From NCBI GenBank assembly GCA_009773205.1, contig WPAE01000002.1, positions 3,241 to 67,240 on the forward strand: a stretch of DNA of 64,000 nucleotides, written 5' to 3'. This DNA comes from Ignavibacteria bacterium. GTDB lineage: Bacteria > Bacteroidota > Ignavibacteria > Ignavibacteriales > Melioribacteraceae. The notes beneath the pieces are model-generated. The model was not told where the DNA came from and did not search any database. It saw only the letters and a list, made by a program, of their open reading frames with translations. A program made the position numbers and the translations under genes. Shown here piece after piece: positions 985 through 39,382 of the stretch (its first letter is position 1; every line of letters begins with the position of its first letter).

Positions 985-1437
985 TTGAATCTTAAAGAAA
1001 AAATTAATAATGATCTAAAAGAAGCAATGAAGAGCGGTGAGAAACTTCGTCTCGAAACAATTCGTTCTATACGTGCTTTAATTTTGGAATTTGAAAAAAG
1101 CGGAAGTGGAAAAGAATTTTCTGAAGAAGAGGGTTTGAGAATTTTAACTGTTGCTGCTAAAAAAAGAAAAGAGGCAATAGAGCAATTCAAAAATGCAAAC
1201 CGTAATGATTTAGCAGAAAAGGAAGAAGCCGAGCTAAAAATAATTGAATTATATCTTCCTAAACAGTTAACCCCGGAAGAAATACTTATTGAAGTAAAAA
1301 ATATTGCCGAAGAAGCTGGAGCTAAAGGAAAAGAAGATTTTGCAAAAGTAATGCCACTTGCTGCTAAAAGTTTAAAAGGCAAAGCTGATGGTAAAGTGAT
1401 TCGCGAAATTCTTGAAAAACTTTTGAGCGGCAATTGA
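985..1437 (+). CDS. GatB/YqeY domain protein
   Basis: LKEAMKS, KKRKEAIEQF..ANRNDLAEKEEAE..YLPKQL, KGKADGK typical of YqeY. Confidence 0.9.
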   Translation: MNLKEKINNDLKEAMKSGEKLRLETIRSIRALILEFEKSGSGKEFSEEEGLRILTVAAKKRKEAIEQFKNANRNDLAEKEEAELKIIELYLPKQLTPEEILIEVKNIAEEAGAKGKEDFAKVMPLAAKSLKGKADGKVIREILEKLLSGN

Positions 1438-1985
1438 ATTATCTAGATTACATAATTCTCGTTATAGCGCTTATTGGGTTCATACTTGGTTTTAAGGATG
1501 GGCTTGTTCGAAAAATAATTGGGTTACTTGGGTTGATCTTAGCTGTTGTTCTTGCATTTCAACTTGGTGGTAAAGCCGGAGAAGTACTTACCTCTTTTTT
1601 TATTGAAGATGATTATTTGGCAGCTTTGATTTCTGGAGTGATAATATTTTTGGGCGTTATGCTTATCTCTTCAATCCTTAAAAGAATTATTCATCCAGCA
1701 GATAAAGTAAATAATTTAATTAACCAAACTCTTGGCGGACTTATAGGCGTAATTCAAATACTTTTTTTTGCAAGCACAGTTTGTCTTATCTTAAACATAT
1801 TTGGCTTTCCTAAGAGCGATGATAGAAATAATTCTACTTTCTATAATTCTGTTCTTAACTTAATTCCAAAAACAACTGAGTTTCTAATTGGCAACCGTTC
1901 AAAAGCAACAGATGTCTTTAATGATTTTATAGAAATGAACGATATTGATTCTTCTGGACAAACAGATTCAAATACAATAAAATGA
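1434..1985 (+). CDS. cvpA: CvpA (colicin V production) family membrane protein
   Basis: MNYLDYIIL..GFKDGLVR N-terminus, four hydrophobic segments, LGGLIG; sits upstream of mutS2. Confidence 0.85.
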   Translation: MNYLDYIILVIALIGFILGFKDGLVRKIIGLLGLILAVVLAFQLGGKAGEVLTSFFIEDDYLAALISGVIIFLGVMLISSILKRIIHPADKVNNLINQTLGGLIGVIQILFFASTVCLILNIFGFPKSDDRNNSTFYNSVLNLIPKTTEFLIGNRSKATDVFNDFIEMNDIDSSGQTDSNTIK

Positions 1986-4333
1986 TTACAAAAGATATTT
2001 TAGAAAAATTAGAATACCCAAAAGTCGTTGCACAGATAGAAAAATACTGCTTTACAGATAGCGGGAAAAAGATTACTTCTGAATTGCTGCCTATGTACGA
2101 AACAGAGGCTATTCAGTTAGAATACAAACGAGTAAATGAAGCAAAAGAAATTTTAATAAGAAACGAAGAACCGCCTTTCGAATACTTACCTGACATAACG
2201 GAAACCTTATCAAGAAGCAGAATTCAAGGTGTTATTCTTGTATCGAAGCAAATTATAGAAGTTTATAATTTGGCTCAACTATCAAGAAAGCTATATCAAT
2301 TTTTAAAATTAAAAAATGATGCTGTTGAAACTAACCTAAATGATTTACTTACTCTGTTATTTGTAGATAAAGTATTTGAACACCACTTTACAAAAGTATT
2401 TGATGACAATGGCGAGATAAAAGATACTGCAAGCGTAAAACTTAGAGACATTCGTGTTGATATTAGAGAAAAAGAATCTGCTCTTCAAAAACTTGTACAG
2501 AGATTGTTAAAGCAGCTAAGCGATTCTTATTTAGTTCAAGAGGAATTTGTAACTCAACGCGATGGAAGAATTGTTTTGCCAATTAAAGCCGAACATAAAA
2601 GGCATGTTCGAGGATTCATTCATTCGGAATCTGCAACTGGACAAACCGTTTACATTGAGCCAGAAGAAACTCTTGAGATGAACAATGAAATTCTTTCTCT
2701 TCATTTTGCAGAAAAAAGGGAAATAGAAAAAATACTTCGTGGGCTAACAGAAAAAATTGCCGAACAGAATATTGCGCTAAAACAGTCTTTGTTTGCTATT
2801 GCACAACTCGATTCCATTTTTGCGCGTGCAAAGTATTCTATTGCTGTAATTGGATCGCATCCAAGTTATTTTCTCAACAAACCGTTTGAAATGATTGATG
2901 CAAGACATCCTCTTCTCTTAAAGCGTCTTGGCCATCAAAAAACTGTGCCGATGAACCTGAAGTTAAAAAATGAGAAAGTTGTTCTTATTACAGGACCAAA
3001 TGCTGGCGGTAAAACAGTAACGCTTAAAACTTGCGGCTTATTAGTATGTTTGGCTCAAGCGGGCATTCCGGTTCCAGTATTCCCCGATTCCAACTTCCAC
3101 ATTTTTGAAAGTGTTTTGGTAGATATTGGCGATGCGCAATCTATTGAAGATGACTTGAGCACGTTTAGCTCTCATTTAACAAACATTAAAAATATTATAG
3201 AATCTGCAGATGATAAATCTTTGGCTTTGCTCGATGAAATTGGAACTGGAACTGATCCGGCAGAAGGTTCGGCAATTGCTGTCGGAGTTTTAATTTCATT
3301 ACGCGATAAAGGAGCAATAGTATTAGCTACAACTCATCACGGAAGCTTGAAATTAGTTGCAAACCAGCTTGAAGAATTTCAAAATGCTTCTATGGAGTTT
3401 GATACCGATTTACTAAAACCGACTTACAGATTTAAGCAAGGAATGCCCGGCTCGAGTTATGCTTTTGAAGTTGCTCAACGAATTGGTTTTGATGATGAGT
3501 TTATAAATCTCTCTAAGCAGTATCTTGATACCGATAAAACTAAAATTGAAGAATTCTTAGTAAGCTTGGAAAAGAAATCTCAAGATTTGCGAGATCAGTT
3601 GAACAAAAGTGAGATTGAAAATCTTCGTTTGAAAGGATTAGCAAATCTGTATCAAAACAAAATTGAGAAGTTAGAACAGCAGAAGAAAGAAATTCTTTCC
3701 GATACTCAAGAGAAAGCACAAATGTATTTGAAAGATGTAAATAGACAGATTGAAGATACAATTAAGAACATTCGTGAATCTCAGGCAAAGAAAGAAGTTA
3801 TCAAACAAGAAAAAGAGAAAATCGAGCAGTTAAAGAGAGAAACAAAAAAGATAATTCCACAAAAGCAAAAAGTAGTGCTTGAGAAAAAAGAATTTAAAGT
3901 TGGAGATTATGCTTCAATTGTAAACACTTCTACAGCCGGCGTTATTCAAGAACTTGATAATGATAAAAATAAAGCTCTTCTTCTTGTTGGTTCGTTGAAA
4001 ATTAAAACTAAGATTAGCGAGCTGCAGACGGCAAAGAAAACCGAAGCTGAGTTAGTTTACAAAAAGAAGTATGAAAATGATTATCAGAATCTTAACTTTA
4101 GATTAGATTTACGCGGTATGAGATATGAAGATGCAGAGTTTGCTCTTATTAAATTTTTAGATGAAGCAAATATGAATGGAGTTGACCGAGTAGAAGTGCT
4201 TCATGGAAAAGGAACCGGTGTCTTAAAACAGCTTACTCTCGGAATTCTTAGAACAAATCATTCAGTTAAAAATTTCTACTTTTCTGGAATAGAAAGCGGC
4301 GGAGAAGGAATAACAATTGTAGAGTTTAAATAA
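1982..4333 (+). CDS. mutS2: MutS2 (ATPase with coiled coil, KOW and Smr domains)
   Basis: Walker A TGPNAGGKT, DIGDAQSIEDDLSTFSSH, DEIGTGTDP, ATTHHG; C-terminal LDLRG..HGKGTGVL Smr domain. Confidence 0.95.
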   Translation: MITKDILEKLEYPKVVAQIEKYCFTDSGKKITSELLPMYETEAIQLEYKRVNEAKEILIRNEEPPFEYLPDITETLSRSRIQGVILVSKQIIEVYNLAQLSRKLYQFLKLKNDAVETNLNDLLTLLFVDKVFEHHFTKVFDDNGEIKDTASVKLRDIRVDIREKESALQKLVQRLLKQLSDSYLVQEEFVTQRDGRIVLPIKAEHKRHVRGFIHSESATGQTVYIEPEETLEMNNEILSLHFAEKREIEKILRGLTEKIAEQNIALKQSLFAIAQLDSIFARAKYSIAVIGSHPSYFLNKPFEMIDARHPLLLKRLGHQKTVPMNLKLKNEKVVLITGPNAGGKTVTLKTCGLLVCLAQAGIPVPVFPDSNFHIFESVLVDIGDAQSIEDDLSTFSSHLTNIKNIIESADDKSLALLDEIGTGTDPAEGSAIAVGVLISLRDKGAIVLATTHHGSLKLVANQLEEFQNASMEFDTDLLKPTYRFKQGMPGSSYAFEVAQRIGFDDEFINLSKQYLDTDKTKIEEFLVSLEKKSQDLRDQLNKSEIENLRLKGLANLYQNKIEKLEQQKKEILSDTQEKAQMYLKDVNRQIEDTIKNIRESQAKKEVIKQEKEKIEQLKRETKKIIPQKQKVVLEKKEFKVGDYASIVNTSTAGVIQELDNDKNKALLLVGSLKIKTKISELQTAKKTEAELVYKKKYENDYQNLNFRLDLRGMRYEDAEFALIKFLDEANMNGVDRVEVLHGKGTGVLKQLTLGILRTNHSVKNFYFSGIESGGEGITIVEFK

Positions 4334-5830: not shown

Positions 5831-6323
5831 ATTTGTGATTACTGTTAATAATAAAAAGAAAACCGTGCGAGTGAATGATGACGGCACTGTAAATTTAGAT
5901 GGTAAGTTACAGAGTGCTTCTGTTACTAAAATTAGTAATCACTCATACTTACTTAGGTTTGGGAATAAGATTTATGAAGCTGCGGTAAACAAATCTAGTA
6001 ATGGCGAATTTAGATTTTTGATTGACGGATGGTATTTTGATACTAATGTAAGAACACGCCTGCAAGAAACCGCTTACGAGTTACTGAGAAACAAACAAAA
6101 AACTTATCACCATACGGAAGTAAAAGCGCCAATGCCTGGCTTGCTTATAAAAATAAAAAAGACTGTTGGAGATTTTGTTGAATTAGGCGAGCCAATTTTA
6201 GTACTTGAAGCGATGAAGATGGAAAATGATCTTCACTCTCCATCAAGCGGAATTATTAAAGAAATCCATTTCCAAGAAGGACAGACGGTTGAAAAAGGCT
6301 CTGTTATTTTAATAATAGAATAA
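5823..6323 (+). CDS. Biotin carboxyl carrier protein with N-terminal extension (split PCC-alpha-like C-terminal half)
   Basis: APMPG and EAMKMEN biotinylation motif; ATG at 5823 overlaps the accC stop. Confidence 0.88.
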   Translation: MNEFVITVNNKKKTVRVNDDGTVNLDGKLQSASVTKISNHSYLLRFGNKIYEAAVNKSSNGEFRFLIDGWYFDTNVRTRLQETAYELLRNKQKTYHHTEVKAPMPGLLIKIKKTVGDFVELGEPILVLEAMKMENDLHSPSSGIIKEIHFQEGQTVEKGSVILIIE

Positions 6324-13499: not shown

Positions 13500-13522
13500 A
13501 AGCATACAATTTTATTACTGAA

Positions 13523-13618
13523 TGGTACCTCTAATAACCACTTATTTTAATATTAACATACTGTAAACGAAGATTTAACAGGGTTACGCAGACTATTATT
13601 GAGTTTTTAGTGGTACCA
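13523..13618. mobile_element. Short non-autonomous TIR element (MITE-like), 96 bp
   Basis: Ends tggtacctctaataac / gtttttagtggtacca (14/16 inverted match) flanked by direct TGAA at 13519-22 and 13619-22. Confidence 0.65.
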
Positions 13619-13683
13619 TGAATGAATAGATTGAGTTAAAAGATTAAAATCACTATTTTCATGCAGGAAAAAGTATAGAGAAA

Positions 13684-13884
13684 ATGGAAACGATTAAAAA
13701 GAAATATGTAATTGACGAAAACAACAATCAGGTAGCAGTTCAGATTGATATAAAAGCATATCAAAAATTGGAAGAATTGTTAGAGAACTATGCTTTGGTT
13801 GAACTAATGAAAGAAGACAATAGCGAAAGACTCGAAGTACGGGAAGCAAAAGAATTTTATAAAAAACTCCCGAAAGAAAAGTGA
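13684..13884 (+). CDS. Small putative type II antitoxin
   Basis: 66 aa, acidic; KKYVIDENN..VAVQIDI beta-rich N-terminus; GTGA overlap with a RelE-like fragment. Confidence 0.6.
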   Translation: METIKKKYVIDENNNQVAVQIDIKAYQKLEELLENYALVELMKEDNSERLEVREAKEFYKKLPKEK

Positions 13885-13961
13885 AAATTGAGTATAGCAA
13901 GAAATTTTTAAGTGAACTATCTCTTGTTCCACTACCAATAATTGATTTGCCTCATTTATAA
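13881..13961 (+). pseudogene. Truncated RelE/ParE-like toxin (26 codons)
   Basis: GTG-start VKIEYSKKFLSELSLVP resembles RelE N-termini, then an early TAA. Confidence 0.55.
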
Positions 13962-13981
13962 TCTCAAATAAACTTATTCCT

Positions 13982-13989
13982 TATATTTG
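13982..13989 (+). promoter_or_regulatory. Possible Bacteroidota-type -7 promoter element for hicBA
   Basis: TATATTTG matches TAnnTTTG about 47 bp upstream of hicB. Confidence 0.35.
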
Positions 13990-14036
13990 TTGTTAGAAAA
14001 GTAATATGTAATAACTTTATCATAAAGGAATAAAGA

Positions 14037-14261
14037 ATGCGTACAATTCAGTTTACAGCTTTAATTGAACGTGAGGGAAACCAATACGTAGCTTTGTGTC
14101 CCGAATTAGATATTGCAAGTCAAGGCGGTACAGTAGAACAAGCACGCAAGAATTTGCACGAAGCTTTAGAACTGTTTTTTGAAACAGCTTCAAAAAAAGA
14201 AATTAAACAACGTCTTCATAACGAAGTTTTTATAACCCGGTTGGAAGTAGCAGTTGGGTAA
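14037..14261 (+). CDS. hicB: HicB-family antitoxin (short)
   Basis: FTALIEREG..YVALCPELDIASQGGTVEQARKNLHEALELF. Confidence 0.9.
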   Translation: MRTIQFTALIEREGNQYVALCPELDIASQGGTVEQARKNLHEALELFFETASKKEIKQRLHNEVFITRLEVAVG

Positions 14262-14475
14262 GTTAAAGTTACTTTCCGCAGAGCAAGTCTGTAAGATTCT
14301 GTCTAATCATGGTTTTGAGAAAGTTCGTCAGAAAGGAAGTCATATAATAATGCAGAAGAAAACTGGTGATTCAACAACCACAGTACCTGTCCCAAACCAT
14401 AAAGAAATTTTAATTGGAACGCTTAAATCAATTATCAGACAATCACAAATACCTGCTGCTGAGTTTAAGAACTAA
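14254..14475 (+). CDS. hicA: HicA-family toxin (mRNA interferase)
   Basis: KILSNHGFEKVRQKGSH, TVPVPNH..IGTLKSIIRQ. Confidence 0.92.
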   Translation: MGKLKLLSAEQVCKILSNHGFEKVRQKGSHIIMQKKTGDSTTTVPVPNHKEILIGTLKSIIRQSQIPAAEFKN

Positions 14476-14513
14476 CCTATAATCTTCGTTGTTAATCAAA
14501 TAAGAAAACAGAA

Positions 14514-15626
14514 ATGGATAACTTGAACGAGAAACGTGTTATAGTTGCTATGAGCGGTGGTGTTGATTCTTCCGTAGCTGCGGCATTACTGCATAAGCAA
14601 GGCTATGAAGTAATTGGTATAACTATGAAAACTTGGGGCTTTATGGAAGTAGGCGGCGCGCCGAAACATGAATCCGGCTGCTGCTCTTTAGATGCAATTT
14701 TTGATGCGAAGAATGTTGCAAATTCTTTTGACATACCACATTACACAGTTGATTTCACAAAAGCTTTTGAGGAAACTGTAATTGATAATTTTGTTGATGA
14801 ATATTTGAATGGCAGAACACCAAATCCTTGTGTTGTTTGCAACAGAAAAATTAAGTGGGAAGAACTTCTTAAGAAAGCCGATTCTCTTGATGCTAAATAT
14901 GTTGCAACTGGGCATTATGCAATTGTGGAGTACAATGAAAAATCAAATCGCTATACTCTGAAATTTTCTCGCGATGCAAAGAAGGATCAAACTTATGCGC
15001 TTTGGGGATTGACACAGGAGTCTTTATCTAGAACACTTTTTCCGCTTGGCGAGCTAACCAAAGAAGAAGTAAGAAACCTAGCAGTAGAATTTAATTTGAA
15101 GACCGCTAAGAAACCTGATAGTATGGAAATCTGCTTTGTTGCTGATGATAATTATGAACGCTTTTTACGTGAAAGAGTACCTGATTTAATTGATAAAGTG
15201 GAAGAGGGAGATTTTGTATATCATGGAAAAATAATTGGCAGGCACAAGGGAATACCATTTTATACAGTTGGGCAAAGGCGCGGTGTTGGAATTGCTTTTG
15301 GAAAGCCAATCTACGTAAAAAAGATTGACGAGTTAAATAATGTAGTGGAGTTAGGTGATAAAGAAGAATTAATGGAAACTATGGTACTTGTGCACGATGT
15401 AAATTATGTCAGTGTAAATCAGTTAAATGAGAATGAATTTGTTCACGCCAAGATTCGATATGCGGATAAAGCGGCAAAGGCAAAAATAATTTCCTTTGAT
15501 GAGAACTATATCAAACTGAGTTTTTTAGAACCGAAAAACGCGATAACTCCAGGACAATCTTTAGTTATTTACAATGAACAAGGTTACGTTTTGGCGGGCG
15601 GGATTATTTCTAAAGGACATCTCTAA
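14514..15626 (+). CDS. mnmA: tRNA 2-thiouridylase
   Basis: VAMSGGVDSSV, GRTPNPCVVCN, ATGHY, KDQTY, DSMEIC, TVGQRRG, ITPGQ. Confidence 0.97.
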   Translation: MDNLNEKRVIVAMSGGVDSSVAAALLHKQGYEVIGITMKTWGFMEVGGAPKHESGCCSLDAIFDAKNVANSFDIPHYTVDFTKAFEETVIDNFVDEYLNGRTPNPCVVCNRKIKWEELLKKADSLDAKYVATGHYAIVEYNEKSNRYTLKFSRDAKKDQTYALWGLTQESLSRTLFPLGELTKEEVRNLAVEFNLKTAKKPDSMEICFVADDNYERFLRERVPDLIDKVEEGDFVYHGKIIGRHKGIPFYTVGQRRGVGIAFGKPIYVKKIDELNNVVELGDKEELMETMVLVHDVNYVSVNQLNENEFVHAKIRYADKAAKAKIISFDENYIKLSFLEPKNAITPGQSLVIYNEQGYVLAGGIISKGHL

Positions 15627-15750
15627 AAACCCAGAGATGATTGTCATTACAAGCTGTTCTTTGGCGAAGTAATCTCGTTTTTCTTTTTATTAATTGGAAG
15701 ATTGCTTTCCCGCAACAAAACTGCGGGACAATCTTTCGCTTCTCGCATTC

Positions 15751-16111
15751 GAGCGTGTTGCACAATTAAAGATTTTATAAAATAGCTCCGTGCTTCAGCA
15801 CAGAGAATATTAGGAAAAATACAATGCGTGGCTTAGCCACATTTCTAAGTTTTATATGCAGCTATCCGAAGGATTTCTATGGAAAAGCCGGAAGATTCCT
15901 TTCCTAATTTTCTCCGGCATAAAGAGGCTGTGTGAAAAAGGCAAAAATATTGGTAGGCGCAACTTTTAAGTTGCGGTTTTATAATAGAAACCCAAGCTGA
16001 CCAGCTTCGCCAAGCGGCTTAGCGCGGCGAGAGCTTGCGGCTACCATAAAGATTTAATATTAACACAGTCTCTAAATGCAAGAGCTATATTAACGGTTGT
16101 GCAACACGCTC
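15751..16111. mobile_element. Middle TIR element (361 bp)
   Basis: Perfect 15-bp inverted repeat gagcgtgttgcacaa / ttgtgcaacacgctc; no clean target duplication. Confidence 0.65.
15924..16072. mobile_element. Inner TIR element (149 bp)
   Basis: gaggctgtgtgaaaa / tattaacacagtctc (12/15); direct TAAA at 15920-23 and 16073-76. Confidence 0.65.
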
Positions 16112-16388
16112 ATCGAAGCGGGCGCTCCCTTGCAATGACAGCAATGATTTTCGAGATGCCCTAAAGACTATTCTTAAGGAGGTATCCAAAATCAAAAATT
16201 AAGTATTACTCTTTCATTGTTGCAATCTAATTACGATATTTGCACAAATTAGTTTGATAGACGCTTAAAGGAGGTCAGTCTTCGAATATAGGAACAGCAC
16301 AAACGGCGCTCTTAATGCAAGAGTTCTACTACTCAACCAGAGTTACGAACCACTTTCCATATGTAATGTTAAGAAAGCTTTTATACTG

Positions 16389-16814
16389 ATGATTTTGGGG
16401 AAGGCAGAATTAATTGCTCCAAATGAGAAAAAATTTTTGCGCACGGTTTCTAATTCTTATCCTTGGCCAAGTGTAATCCGTTTAAGCGATTATATACGAG
16501 TCCCTTACAAAAAAATTATCCTCACACGCAAAAACATTTTGAGGCGCGATAGCCACAAATGTAAGTATTGTGGTAGAGGTGATTTACCACTTACTATTGA
16601 CCACATTATTCCCAAATCTAAAGGTGGAGATGACAGCTGGGAAAATCTTGTTGCAGCTTGTATGCCTTGTAACAACAAGAAAGGAGATAGAACTCCTGAT
16701 GATGCTGACATGAAACTGCGAGCTAAACCATTTGCACCAAATCATATTCACTTCATCACAAATAACAATGGTAGGATTGACGATACTTGGAAACCGTATT
16801 TATTTCAATCTTAG
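16389..16814 (+). CDS. HNH endonuclease (McrA-like, Zn-finger); true N-terminus probably upstream of this ATG
   Basis: RKNILRRD..CKYCG, TIDHIIPKSKGG, WENLVAACMPCNNKKG; in-frame VLLLNQSYEPL upstream. Confidence 0.88.
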   Translation: MILGKAELIAPNEKKFLRTVSNSYPWPSVIRLSDYIRVPYKKIILTRKNILRRDSHKCKYCGRGDLPLTIDHIIPKSKGGDDSWENLVAACMPCNNKKGDRTPDDADMKLRAKPFAPNHIHFITNNNGRIDDTWKPYLFQS

Positions 16815-16854
16815 GAACGTACTAATTTTTGACAGGTTGTGTTAATTAGATTTA

Positions 16855-16955
16855 TGAGCCTACTCTAAAAAGCCTCAAATTGAGTTTTTGCACTATGAAT
16901 TTGAGCAATAATCAAAGCATTTTTTCATCCGAAATACCTTTTTATAGTAGGCTCA
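16855..16955. mobile_element. Short TIR element (101 bp)
   Basis: tgagcctactctaaaaag / ctttttatagtaggctca (17/18); direct TTTA at 16851-54 and 16956-59. Confidence 0.7.
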
Positions 16956-16977
16956 TTTATGAAATTGCCAAAAGAAA

Positions 16978-17070
16978 GTAAAAAGCAATTATTTAAAAAT
17001 TTATCAGTGAAAATCATAATATATCCGTTCAATCTGCGTTCCGTTTTATGATTAAATAATTGCTTTTTAC
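16978..17070. repeat. Perfect 18-bp inverted repeat upstream of trpS
   Basis: gtaaaaagcaattattta (16978-95) / taaataattgctttttac (17053-70), inner aatcataa/ttatgatt pair. Confidence 0.75.
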
Positions 17071-17138
17071 CTCATTGAGATTAATTCACACAACGGGTTA
17101 ATTTTTATTATTTTTACAGCCCATTAAATAAATTGGTT

Positions 17139-18143
17139 ATGCCGAAAAAAAGAATACTTAGCGGAATGCGCCCAACCGGTAAATTGCACATTGGTCATTA
17201 CGTTGGCGCTTTGGAAAATTGGATTCTGCTTCAATCAGATTCGCAGAACCCTGGCGGGAATGAATACGAAAGCTTTCATTTAATTGCAGATTACCATGTT
17301 TTAACAACCGGACTTGAAACGGAAGAAATTTACCAGAATTCGATTGATATGGTGATTGATTGGCTTGCTGCCGGACTAGACCCGCAGAAAAGTCCATTTT
17401 TTAGACAATCGCAGATTAAAGAACATACCGAACTTTTTCTAATTTTTTCGATGCTGATAACTACTGCAAGGTTAGAGCGAAATCCAACTCTAAAAGAACA
17501 GGTGCGCGATTTGAATATTGAAAACGTTATCTATGGGCATCTTGGCTATCCGGTTCTTCAATCGGCGGATATTCTCCTTTACAAAGGCGATGCTGTTCCT
17601 GTTGGAGAAGACCAAGTTCCTCATATCGAAATTACAAGAGAGATTGCAAGAAGGTTTAATAATCTATATGGCAATGTTTTTCCGGAACCGGATGCATTGC
17701 TTACAAAATTTGCCCGGCTTCCAGGTTTAGACGGCGATGCAAAGATGAGTAAGTCGCTCGGGAATACGATTTTGCTTTCTGATGATGCAGAAACTGTAAA
17801 ACAGAAACTACGTAAAGCTGTAACAGATCCTCAGAAAGTAAGAAGGAATGATCCGGGAAGACCAGAGGTATGTTTAGTTTTCACTTACCATAGAAAGTTT
17901 AATTCTGAAGAAATTCCAGAGATAGAAGAAAACTGCAAAGCAGGAATTTTAGGATGTGTAGATTGCAAACTAAAATGTGCCGCAAAGATGAATGAATGGC
18001 TTGCGCCAATTATTGATAAGAGAAATCATTACGAAGATAATTTGAATGAAGTAAAAGATATTCTTGCTTATGGCGAATCTAAAGGAAGACTTGTTGCACA
18101 GGCAACCATGAACGAAGTTAGAGAAAAAATGAAGTTAGGATAA
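17139..18143 (+). CDS. trpS: Tryptophan--tRNA ligase
   Basis: SGMRPTGKLHIGHY (HIGH), VPVGEDQ.PH, KMSKS. Confidence 0.97.
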   Translation: MPKKRILSGMRPTGKLHIGHYVGALENWILLQSDSQNPGGNEYESFHLIADYHVLTTGLETEEIYQNSIDMVIDWLAAGLDPQKSPFFRQSQIKEHTELFLIFSMLITTARLERNPTLKEQVRDLNIENVIYGHLGYPVLQSADILLYKGDAVPVGEDQVPHIEITREIARRFNNLYGNVFPEPDALLTKFARLPGLDGDAKMSKSLGNTILLSDDAETVKQKLRKAVTDPQKVRRNDPGRPEVCLVFTYHRKFNSEEIPEIEENCKAGILGCVDCKLKCAAKMNEWLAPIIDKRNHYEDNLNEVKDILAYGESKGRLVAQATMNEVREKMKLG

Positions 18144-39308: not shown

Positions 39309-39382
39309 TCGGAACGGCGGGATTTGAACCCGCGACCACTTGAACCCCATTCAAGTACGCTACCGGGCTGCGCTACGTTCCG
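39309..39382 (-). tRNA. tRNA-Pro (GGG), CCA not encoded
   Basis: Reverse complement CGGAACGTAGCGCAGCCCGGTAGCGTACTTGAATGGGGTTCAAGTGGTCGCGGGTTCAAATCCCGCCGTTCCGA folds as a cloverleaf. Confidence 0.96.

What the first reader, a model, noticed from the sequence alone, without database searches (positions are those of the whole stretch)
15615..16161. Russian-doll stack of nested TIR elements with no transposase
Four concentric layers: outer TIR with TAAA duplication (15615-16161); a REP-like palindrome (15642-16140); a perfect 15-bp TIR element (15751-16111) sitting inside a cgcttc..gaagcg hairpin; and an inner TIR element with TAAA duplication (15924-16072). Small hairpins fill the interior (gtgcttcagcac, gtggcttagccac, gcgcaacttttaagttgcg). 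Inference: repeated insertion of different non-autonomous elements into each other, or one highly structured RNA.
Basis: partly seen in the sequence, partly recalled or inferred. Interest (0 to 1): 0.65.

Follow-up and report, generated by a model that had tools for sequence, protein, structure and literature searches.

The report
Nested MITE and REP repeat stack
A 551-base block inserted at the very end of the mnmA gene of an uncultured Ignavibacteria-type bacterium is a nest of small transposase-less mobile repeats sitting inside one another; it is a tidy example of a known phenomenon, not a new kind of element or a new RNA gene.

Summary
Window 15615-16161 is a 547-nt element (family A) with 12/14 terminal inverted repeats and a TAAA duplication. 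Five related genomes keep the mnmA-HNH-trpS gene order but lack it. Removing it restores an in-frame mnmA end and a normal spacer length.

Inside it lie:
- a 361-nt unit bounded by a perfect 15-bp inverted repeat (B);
- a 149-nt TIR element with a TAAA duplication (C);
- a dimer of GTAG-tagged REP hairpins forming the core of C;
- a 31-nt hairpin in the loop of the second REP.

The layers have different copy numbers in metagenomes. C has solo copies in other Ignavibacteria genomes, each at the 4-nt A/T loop of a hairpin and flanked by a 4-nt direct repeat (one copy with a mismatch). One A copy lacks everything from B inwards. B occurs once in another context.

There is no Rfam match, no compensatory change in the C arms, and no transposase in the 64 kb.

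Verdict: nested non-autonomous repeats (MITEs plus REP dimers), mobilised in trans. These are new families of a known kind. Interest is low to moderate.

The parts
14514..15626 (+). mnmA (tRNA 2-thiouridylase). Its last 3 codons and stop codon (15615-15626, GHL*) are supplied by the inserted element.
   Evidence: Pfam tRNA_Me_trans, E=2.8e-75. The reading frame across the junction was checked.
15611..15614 (.). Left copy of the TAAA target-site duplication of element A.
15615..16161 (.). Element A with all its contents (547 nt): the whole insertion relative to related genomes.
   Evidence: Absent from L001, L003, L005, L006 and L007. Joints skipping 592-612 nt in relatives' contigs. After removal the spacer is 48 nt, against 53-54 nt in L006/L007.
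15615..15628 (.). Left terminal inverted repeat of A (GGACATCTCTAAAA). Other copies start GGGCATCTATAAAAAT, GGGCGTCTCTAAAAAT and GGGCTTATCTAAAAAT.
   Evidence: (I4).
15642..15653 (.). Subterminal inverted repeat of A, left arm (the partner is 16129-16140). It belongs to family A and is not a separate layer.
   Evidence: I14. 15636-15688 and 16123-16162 are the parts of A that recur in other contigs.
15697..15737 (.). Central hairpin of A (GAAGATTG / CAATCTTTC). Its loop holds a 19-nt hairpin, CCCGCA..TGCGGG (15709-15727), which a solo A copy lacks.
   Evidence: The solo copy reads GAAAGACTGCTTCGGTCTTTT|GCGCTCCC. Related TGTCCCGC..GCGGG hairpins occur in L015.
15737..15742 (.). CGCTTC, left arm of the short hairpin that encloses B (the partner GAAGCG is at 16115-16120). 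It is absent from the solo A copy.
15751..16111 (.). Unit B (361 nt), bounded by a perfect 15-bp inverted repeat, GAGCGTGTTGCACAA. It has no clear target duplication.
   Evidence: I5. 0 of 200 shuffles reach 15 nt. B is single-copy in runs X1-X5. One 227-nt contig in X18 matches 15750-15853 at about 97% and has an unrelated left flank.
15803..15914 (.). Internal 15-nt inverted repeat within B (GAGAATATTAGGAAA / TTTCCTAATTTTCTC, 14/15), enclosing the small hairpins.
   Evidence: I8.
15912..15919 (.). CTCCGGCA, left arm of the imperfect hairpin of B whose TAAA loop received C (the partner TGCAAGAG is at 16077-16084).
   Evidence: (I1).
15920..15923 (.). Left copy of the TAAA duplication of element C.
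15924..16072 (.). Element C (149 nt), a TIR element (GAGGCTGTGTG / CACAGTCTC) that carries a REP dimer.
   Evidence: 86% identity over 160 nt to L010 (which equals L020 and L021), and 85-89% to L009, in unrelated contexts. Depth is raised and contigs break at 15922/15923 and around 16067.
15953..15976 (+). REP unit 1: a GTAG tag plus the hairpin GCGCAACTT-TT-AAGTTGCG, followed by GTTTTAT (terminator-like).
   Evidence: 2 matches against 0.29 expected. (terminator-like site). This is the highest-depth part of the stack, 565-685 against 13.5 in X2.
15993..16044 (-). REP unit 2 in inverted orientation: a GTAG tag at 16044-16041 and the hairpin GCAAGCT..AGCTTGC, interrupted by the 31-nt piece.
16001..16031 (.). 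31-nt hairpin-forming piece in the loop of REP unit 2. It is present in L010 and absent from L009 and from other metagenome copies.
   Evidence: Alignment A2. Joints 15998>16032 with 2 nt (TA or AA) in between.
16073..16076 (.). Right copy of the TAAA duplication of C.
16148..16161 (.). Right terminal inverted repeat of A (TTTTCGAGATGCCC).
16162..16165 (.). Right copy of the TAAA duplication of A.
16166..16177 (+). Former last codons and stop codon of mnmA (GAC TAT TCT TAA), now cut off from the gene.
   Evidence: Joining 15614 to 16166 reads ...GGIISKDYS* in frame.

Best explanation
Window 15615-16161 is a compound nest of non-autonomous mobile repeats in the chromosome of an uncultured Ignavibacteria/Melioribacter-like bacterium (MAG GCA_009773245.1).

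What happened. A MITE of family A, about 140 nt in its simple form, inserted at a TAAA 10 nt before the original mnmA stop codon. It duplicated the TAAA and gave the gene a new 3-codon tail. This copy of A carries extra material in its central hairpin region:
- a short hairpin enclosing unit B (361 nt, perfect 15-bp terminal repeat);
- in the TAAA loop of a hairpin of B, the 149-nt TIR element C, again with a TAAA duplication;
- the core of C, a head-to-head dimer of GTAG-tagged REP hairpins;
- in the loop of the second REP, a further 31-nt hairpin.

Mechanism (inferred). A and C are moved in trans by DDE-type transposases encoded elsewhere. These make 4-bp duplications at A/T-rich tetranucleotides (TAAA, TTAA). 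The REP units are the kind of substrate handled by RAYT/HUH enzymes. C prefers the A/T loop at the tip of a DNA hairpin. Every inserted element is itself a hairpin with an A/T-rich centre, so each insertion creates the next target. That would explain the concentric architecture.

Shown: the insertion relative to relatives, the duplications, the family membership of A, C and the REPs, and the nesting order.
Inferred: the enzyme types, supply in trans, whether the nest was assembled at this locus or arrived ready-made, and any effect on transcription. REP unit 1 looks like an intrinsic terminator downstream of mnmA.
For: Empty sites
- L001, L003, L005, L006 and L007 (HNH 74-87% identical) keep the order acpS/mnmA-HNH-trpS-scpA-scpB with a 120-215-nt spacer.
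- Deleting 15615-16165 leaves a 48-nt stretch where L006/L007 have 53-54 nt, and restores an in-frame ...SKDYS*.
- Contigs of relatives in three metagenomes skip 592-612 nt here.

Layers have separate copy numbers (run X2)
- 13.5 for the flanks and for B.
- 207-297 for A-left and 63-78 for A-right.
- 83-128 for the ends of C.
- 565-685 for REP1.

Family C
- Copies in L009 and L010 are 85-89% identical. Similarity stops at the duplicated TTAA (L009) or TAAA/CAAA (L010). Each sits at the tip of a hairpin, AGCCCACGGA/TCCGTGGGCT or CCCCACGA/TCGTGGGG, in an intergenic spacer; in L009 the flanking genes are convergent.
- Further copies in X3 and X5 have TTAA before the left end.

Family A
- Three other left ends start GGGC(A/G/T)T.. 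with different flanks.
- One other right end reads ...GAAAGACTGCTTCGGTCTTTT|GCGCTCCCTTGCAATGACA...GATGCCC|TTATATA. That is A without the 19-nt hairpin, the short hairpin, B and C.

Unit B
- An X18 contig matches from 15750 onward at about 97% and has an unrelated left flank. The same sample holds an empty L007-like mnmA-HNH spacer.

REPs
- GTAG plus hairpin occurs on both strands.
- Similar dimers stand alone in L012, L015, L018 and L011.
- GTAG REP dimers embedded in longer palindromes are described by Di Nocera et al. 2013 (PMC3733652).

Not an RNA family
- No Rfam hit at E<=1.
- Changes in the arms of C are not compensated: 11-12 of 16 positions pair in each copy.

Other
- No transposase in the window.
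- The neighbouring HNH-trpS spacer holds two more repeat families, one at roughly 100-200 times the carrier-strain depth (about 30 times the depth of the flanking HNH gene), with a TTTA duplication.
Against: - No autonomous partner with matching ends was found, so the transposase family is a guess.
- B has no recognisable target duplication and only one partial second copy, in a contig of depth 2.4. It could be a diverged internal part of one A lineage.
- No intermediate allele (A alone, or A plus B) was seen at this locus, so stepwise assembly in place is not shown.
- Other A copies are known only as 40-50-nt matches plus 30-nt overhangs. I could not pair a left end with a right end to check their duplications.
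- Copy numbers come from assembler k-mer depths in mixed communities and are rough.
- The REP family looks low-copy here (of the order of 5-10 per genome equivalent), whereas classical REPs number over 100.
- Sequence-only TIR-plus-duplication statistics are modest: 3 of 200 shuffles do as well.
Confidence: 0.8

Rival explanations
1. One ready-made composite. The nest was assembled somewhere else and then moved into the mnmA end in a single event, using only the outer A ends. The inner layers would then say nothing about events at this locus.
For: - Only full and empty states are seen at this locus.
- The mnmA protein with the new tail has no variant that is at least 90% identical in the protein collection.
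- The A ends carry a clean TAAA duplication.
Against: - No second copy of the composite, nor of A joined to B, was seen in any run. B is single-copy wherever the strain occurs.
- This rival differs from the main explanation only in where the nesting happened, not in what the parts are.
Confidence: 0.3
2. All layers are REP/REPIN-type hairpins moved as single-stranded DNA by a RAYT or IS200/IS605-like HUH enzyme. The apparent terminal repeats and duplications would be by-products of insertion into palindromes.
For: - The core of C is a GTAG-tagged REP dimer.
- L015 shows arrays of GTAG-tagged hairpins with hairpins nested in their loops.
- Every insertion point for C is a hairpin tip.
Against: - The flanking tetranucleotides are direct repeats, not inverted ones. 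In the window TAAA is followed by TAAA, not TTTA, for both A and C. That is the signature of staggered cuts by a DDE enzyme. HUH transposition makes no duplication.
- The site of A is not a hairpin.
- No Y1 or HUH gene is in the window.
Confidence: 0.12
3. A single large structured non-coding RNA gene or 3' UTR element of mnmA, whose long-range helices only look like terminal inverted repeats.
For: - Very stable predicted fold, z = -8.9.
- Terminator-like hairpins are enriched: 6 found against 1.3 expected.
Against: - No Rfam family at E<=1.
- Absent from all five related genomes at this locus.
- Both strands fold equally well, as expected for DNA palindromes.
- Sub-parts occur separately elsewhere at different copy numbers.
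- Arm changes in C are uncompensated.
- No RNA runs were available to test transcription.
Confidence: 0.04
4. Local growth of a palindrome by replication slippage or hairpin-templated repair, with no mobile elements involved.
For: - The concentric symmetry.
- A 15-nt near-repeat shared between A and B: GGAAGATTGCTTTCC at 15696 and GGAAGATTCCTTTCC at 15890 (D6).
Against: - Independent copies of A, C, the REP dimer and (once) B exist at unrelated loci and in other genomes.
- A and C carry direct target duplications.
Confidence: 0.04

Closest known systems
Bacterial MITEs (for example Correia/NEMIS in Neisseria, RUP in Streptococcus, Nezha in cyanobacteria, Chunjie in Geobacter)
   Same: - Short (about 100-550 nt) and non-coding.
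- Terminal inverted repeats and a short A/T-rich target duplication.
- Dispersed multi-copy families.
- Presence/absence differences between relatives.
- Located at gene ends, with possible terminator activity.
   Different: - No parent insertion sequence was identified.
- The families are new and come from Ignavibacteria.
- Copy numbers of A and C are low.
- This copy is nested several levels deep.
GTAG-tagged REP dimers / REPINs, including dimers embedded in longer palindromes (Di Nocera et al. 2013, PMC3733652; Bertels & Rainey 2011, PMC3116915)
   Same: - Each unit is an unpaired GTAG followed by a 9-bp-stem hairpin.
- Two units lie in inverted orientation with the GTAG tags outside (the head-head type) and a short spacer.
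- The dimer sits inside a longer palindrome, as described for Anabaena variabilis GTAG-15.
- The position is downstream of genes.
   Different: - The surrounding palindrome here has its own terminal repeats and 4-bp duplications, so it behaves as a MITE.
- The apparent copy number is low.
- No RAYT was found.
- In that survey's passage on CGTC repeats, Chlorobi and Bacteroidetes appear as CGTC hosts; I did not read its list of GTAG phyla.
Insertion sequences that target REP or palindromic units, such as IS1397/ISKpn1 and ISPpu9/ISPpu10 (Tobes & Pareja 2006, PMC1525189, title and abstract seen; details from my own knowledge)
   Same: A mobile element is inserted at a defined place in an extragenic hairpin.
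   Different: - Those are autonomous insertion sequences with their own transposase.
- Here the inserting elements are themselves small hairpins, which is why the result is concentric.

Membership tests
MITE (non-autonomous DDE-type element) | Terminal inverted repeats | tested here: met
   A 12/14, C 12/16 over the first 16 nt (9/11 core... 10/11 with one mismatch), B 15/15.
MITE (non-autonomous DDE-type element) | Direct target-site duplication | tested here: met
   - TAAA/TAAA for A and for C in the window.
- TTAA/TTAA in L009 and TAAA/CAAA in L010 for C.
- Not met for B.
MITE (non-autonomous DDE-type element) | Small, with no transposase coding capacity | tested here: met
   The element is 547 nt in total. 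The only ORFs (42 and 51 aa) straddle its edge. There is no transposase in the 64 kb.
MITE (non-autonomous DDE-type element) | Several dispersed copies with unrelated flanks | tested here: met
   - A: 3-4 other contigs.
- C: L009, L010 and 10 or more contigs.
- B: only one other context.
MITE (non-autonomous DDE-type element) | Insertion polymorphism (filled and empty sites) | tested here: met
   Empty in five related genomes and in relatives' contigs. No empty allele was seen within the same species.
MITE (non-autonomous DDE-type element) | A related autonomous insertion sequence with the same ends | not testable with these tools
   - The rest of the MAG is not readable here, and no ISfinder is on hand.
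- The viral scans gave only chance hits.
GTAG REP / REPIN | A 20-40-nt imperfect palindrome with an unpaired GTAG tag at one end | tested here: met
   GTAGGCGCAACTT..AAGTTGCG on the + strand and GTAGCCGCAAGCT..AGCTTGC on the - strand; 2 matches against 0.29 expected.
GTAG REP / REPIN | Two units in inverted orientation separated by a short spacer | tested here: met
   Tags lie outside and the spacer is about 16 nt. The same layout is seen in L009, L010, L012, L015 and L018.
GTAG REP / REPIN | High copy number within a genome | tested here: inconclusive
   - Depth is 565-685 against about 90 for all related strains together in X2, which suggests fewer than 10 per genome equivalent.
- The exact-pattern scan found one match per MAG.
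- Diverged copies would be missed.
GTAG REP / REPIN | A cognate RAYT (Y1 HUH transposase) gene in the genome, flanked by REPs | not testable with these tools
   None in the window or next to the dimers in L009-L018 (ORF lists only). The rest of the genome was not available.
Structured non-coding RNA family | A match to a curated family, or conserved structure with covariation across genomes | tested here: not met
   No Rfam match at E<=1. The element is absent from syntenic loci. No compensatory changes in the arms of C.

The most novel reading that the evidence does not exclude
The TIR elements of this lineage (C certainly, perhaps B and the small hairpins) may choose their target by DNA structure: the 4-nt A/T loop (TAAA or TTAA) at the tip of a hairpin. 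Terminator hairpins and the centres of earlier insertions would both qualify, so nests would reinforce themselves. In addition, C would be a chimeric vehicle in which a DDE-type MITE carries a RAYT-type GTAG REP dimer, linking two mobilisation systems in Ignavibacteria.
Probability: 0.3. Interest if true: 0.5.

Novelty: new member of a known kind. Interest (0 to 1): 0.3.

Why it matters
Mostly as annotation. It explains a 762-nt "empty" spacer and a changed mnmA C-terminus. It also warns against calling the very stable fold a new large RNA.

It documents several undescribed small repeat families (A, B, C, a GTAG REP dimer and two more in the next spacer) in Ignavibacteria. It gives three clean cases of a MITE landing in the loop of a hairpin. 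If that preference is general, it is a simple rule for how concentric repeat nests arise. It could also matter for transcription termination at gene ends in these genomes.

Tried and rejected
- Rfam over 14000-18000 at E<=1 and over the whole window at gathering score: only tRNA-Pro at 39309. ARAGORN found no tmRNA.
- HEARO/IscB-type association with the downstream HNH gene: rejected. The 141-aa HNH gene is syntenic in all relatives without the RNA-like block.
- Other copies inside the window: none, by blastn-short or self-blastn.
- Phage and plasmid collections: no match.
- Genome-collection scan with the REP1 hairpin motif: 11 loci, 6-7 of them relevant. The window's own MAG is not in that collection.
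- Metagenome scan with a longer motif: only the L010 locus again.
- Viral scans with the B repeat (87 single chance hits, no pairs), the end of the 16850 element (4 chance hits) and the REP motif (0 hits).
- RNA-seq runs: none available.
- Runs holding only B: the same runs as before.
- An empty-site allele within the species, looked for through the mnmA protein cluster: the cluster has one member.
- RAYT next to solo REP dimers: nothing obvious in the ORF lists; not scanned with Pfam.
- Literature search for nested bacterial MITEs and for Ignavibacteria repeats: nothing specific.
Full report
**Context.** The window is contig WPIH01000003.1 of MAG GCA_009773245.1. Homologues of the flanking HNH protein come from Melioribacter, Melioribacteraceae and Ignavibacteriales MAGs. 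The finding lies between mnmA (14514-15626, +) and a 141-aa HNH gene (16389-16814, +). That spacer is 762 nt long. G+C is about 34% for the window and 38-45% in the block.

- Outer arms: GGACATCTCTAAAA / TTTTCGAGATGCCC (12/14), with TAAA on both sides.
- TGTCATTACAAG / CTTGCAATGACA (11/12).
- A perfect 15-bp pair at 15751-15765 / 16097-16111.
- GAGGCTGTGTG / CACAGTCTC, with TAAA on both sides.

The stretch folds 8.9 sd (+ strand) and 8.1 sd (- strand) better than shuffles. In 200 dinucleotide shuffles of 15400-16400, none had a perfect inverted repeat of 15 nt. Only 3 had as many arm pairs flanked by a 4-nt direct repeat as the real sequence (3 observed against 0.48 expected). So sequence statistics alone are suggestive rather than overwhelming.

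**It is an insertion.** Five related genomes (L001, L003, L005, L006, L007; HNH 74-87% identical) keep the order mnmA-HNH-trpS-scpA-scpB, but their mnmA-HNH spacer is 120-215 nt. The alignment puts one gap of about 550 nt directly after the conserved GGCGGGAT(T/A)AT near the mnmA end.
- Removing 15615-16165 (the element plus one TAAA) leaves 48 nt between that motif and the conserved ACTCTTTCATTG..TTACGATATTTGCA block upstream of HNH. L006 and L007 have 53-54 nt there.
- The same operation restores an in-frame mnmA end...GGIISKDYS*, in place of the present ...GGIISKGHL*. The element therefore landed 10 nt before the old stop codon and now supplies the last three codons and the stop.
- In three metagenomes that hold the strain, contigs of 13-15% diverged relatives skip 592-612 nt here, with 44-50 unrelated bases in between.
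- No variant of the mnmA protein that is at least 90% identical exists in the protein collection, so no empty allele of the same species was seen.

**The layers are separate families.** Assembler depths along the block differ sharply in run X2.

| Part | Coordinates | Depth in X2 |
|---|---|---|
| Flanks | - | 13.5 |
| B-specific parts | 15744-15919 and 16074-16117 | 13.5-19 |
| A, left | 15634-15677 | 207-297 |
| A, right | 16118-16161 | 63-78 |
| Ends of C | 15920-15941 and 16052-16073 | 83-128 |
| REP unit 1 | 15942-15985 | 565-685 |
| REP unit 2 | 16008-16051 | 232-274 |

Contigs break at 15636-15639, 15688, 15922-15923, 15950, 16050 and 16067.

**Family A (outer).**
- Three other contigs match 15636-15688 at about 85%. 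They continue leftwards as ..TATT|GGGCATCTATAAAAAT....ATAT|GGGCGTCTCTAAAAAT.. and ..TTAA|GGGCTTATCTAAAAAT.. These are the same end sequence with different flanks.
- One other contig matches 16123-16162 and reads TTTTTAATTGAAAGACTGCTTCGGTCTTTT|GCGCTCCCTTGCAATGACA...GAGATGCCC|TTATATATG. It goes straight from the central hairpin of A to the right arm. It lacks the 19-nt CCCGCA..TGCGGG hairpin (15709-15727), the CGCTTC/GAAGCG hairpin, B and C.
- A simple A is therefore about 140 nt, and the window copy carries about 410 nt of extra material in its centre.
It is a subterminal repeat of A, not a separate insertion.

**Unit B.** B is single-copy wherever the strain occurs. In run X18, a 227-nt contig matches 15750-15853 with 3 substitutions and 1 indel. 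To its left it reads ...GACCAGACTTGCTTAA, which is unrelated to the window. The same run also holds an L007-like empty mnmA-HNH spacer. The break falls at the first base of the 15-bp repeat, which argues that B is a discrete unit. However, B has no clear target duplication here and this is one low-depth contig, so I rate B's independence as probable, not shown.

**Family C (inner).**
- A genome-collection scan with the hairpin GGCGCAACTTYTAAGTTGCG found 11 loci.
- L009 (Ignavibacteria MAG) and L010 (Stygiobacter MAG; L020 and L021 are the same locus) carry the whole element at 85-89% identity over 160 nt.
- Similarity ends exactly at the flanking tetranucleotides. In the window: GGCA TAAA [C] TAAA TGC. 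In L009: AGCCCACGGA TTAA [C] TTAA TCCGTGGGCT. In L010: CCCCACGA TAAA [C] CAAA TCGTGGGG.
- In all three the reconstructed target is a hairpin with the 4-nt A/T loop as the insertion point. In L009 and L010 that hairpin lies in an intergenic spacer; in L009 the flanking genes are convergent, and in L010 the downstream gene is on the same strand.
- Partial copies in X3 and X5 have ..TT|AAGAGG at their left end, which suggests TTAA targets.
- In the window the flanking TAAA copies are direct repeats, not inverted, which is the mark of a staggered cut.
- The arms of C pair at only 11-12 of the first 16 positions, and the differences between copies are never compensated. That fits a decaying DNA repeat, not a selected RNA helix.

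**The core of C is a REP dimer.** GTAG followed by a 9-bp-stem hairpin occurs on the + strand at 15953 and on the - strand at 16044 (2 matches against 0.29 expected).
- Dimers of the same design, GGTAGGCGCAAC..GTTGCG..GCAAGCTGAAGCTTGCGGCTACC, stand outside any C element in L012, L015 and L018. A diverged one is in L011.
- This matches the definition of GTAG-tagged REPs and their head-head dimers. Such dimers embedded in longer palindromes are on record for Anabaena variabilis (Di Nocera et al. 2013, PMC3733652).
- The loop of the second REP carries 31 extra nucleotides (16001-16031). They are present in L010, and absent from L009 and from several metagenome copies (joint 15998>16032).
- L015 shows arrays of related GTAG-tagged hairpins with hairpins nested in their loops. 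Nesting therefore looks like a habit of these genomes.

**Not an RNA gene, and no enzyme nearby.**
- Rfam gives nothing at E<=1.
- Both strands fold equally well.
- No RNA-seq run holds the locus.
- Pfam scans of all 64 ORFs in the window found only housekeeping genes, a RelB-like/HicA pair and one XerC/D-type recombinase next to topA. There was no DDE, Y1/HUH or GIY-YIG protein.

**Mechanism.**
- Shown: the insertion, the duplications, dispersed copies with unrelated flanks, and the nesting order A > short hairpin > B > C > REP dimer > 31-nt piece.
- Inferred: A and C are moved in trans by DDE-type transposases that duplicate 4 bp at A/T-rich tetranucleotides. Their ends share a G(A/G)G(C/G)C..AAAA pattern with the very abundant 16850 element (GGGCATCTCTAAAAA, GAGGCTGTGTGAAAA, GAGCCTACTCTAAAAA), so related enzymes are plausible. 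The REP units would be RAYT substrates.
- Also inferred: each inserted element is a hairpin with an A/T-rich centre, and C demonstrably lands in hairpin loops. Each insertion thus makes a new target, which explains the concentric layout.
- Not settled: whether the nest grew at this locus or arrived ready-made.
- A likely side effect: REP unit 1 (15958-15975 followed by GTTTTAT) scores as an intrinsic terminator downstream of mnmA. Terminator-like sites are enriched (6 against 1.3 expected). The conserved promoter-like block of HNH lies downstream of the insertion and is untouched.

**Verdict.** The thing is ordinary in kind (MITEs and REP dimers, which are known to nest and to sit at gene ends). 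It is new in its families and its host group, and it is a clean illustration of insertion into hairpin loops. Interest 0.3.

Noticed in passing
window 16831-17106 (HNH-trpS spacer): A second compound insertion. Relatives join about 16830 directly to about 17107 (their spacer is 35-105 nt, against 318 nt here). It holds two parts. (a) A roughly 105-nt MITE at 16850-16956, with ends ATGAGCCTACT / AGTAGGCTCAT and TTTA on both sides. Its depth is 1,100-3,500, against 13-80 for the flanks, in three metagenomes. (b) A family at about 16976-17101 with a perfect 19-bp inverted repeat, GTAAAAAGCAATTATTTAA (16978-16996 / 17052-17070), at about 5-10 times the depth.
   Followed up: partly
window 16269-16388: The 40 codons upstream of the HNH ATG are in frame and conserved at protein level in all relatives (..NGALNARVLLLNQSYEPLSICNVKK..). 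They contain no ATG, GTG or TTG in the window. Relatives are called from a TTG that is CTC here. A conserved GGAGG lies at 16270. The real start may be non-canonical or mis-called.
   Followed up: partly
window 13500-14513: A RelB-like antitoxin (13684-13884), a 74-aa ORF (14037-14261) and a HicA toxin (14254-14475) lie between acpS and mnmA. L003 and L005 have acpS directly before mnmA, and L001 has a FapA-domain gene on the other strand. This spacer is therefore another variable spot.
   Followed up: partly
L015 190-400 and 1440-1746: A Melioribacter MAG contig with arrays of small hairpin repeats (TTGTCCCGC..GCGGG, GTAGAGACTTGCC..GGCAAGTCTTTAC, GTAGAGCCGTAG..CTACGGCTTTAC). Several have a hairpin nested in the loop of another, and many are followed by TTTAC.
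   Followed up: no
window 15696-15710 and 15890-15904; 15545-15562 and 15719-15736: Two short direct near-repeats. GGAAGATTGCTTTCC in A matches GGAAGATTCCTTTCC in B (14/15). AACTCCAGGACAATCTTT in the mnmA coding region matches AACTGCGGGACAATCTTT in A (16/18). They may be chance or traces of shared ancestry.
   Followed up: no
window 16209-16250: The block ACTCTTTCATTG..AATCT(A/T)ATTACGATATTTGCA is conserved in the window and in most of the related spacers (not recognisable in L005). It is probably the HNH promoter region (Bacteroidota-type TAnnTTTG-like motif) and it lies just downstream of the insertion.
   Followed up: no
window 5916-6211: An 18-nt inverted repeat (83%) with 260 nt between the arms, in the 504-nt spacer before the FadL-like gene. 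It is a possible further small element.
   Followed up: no
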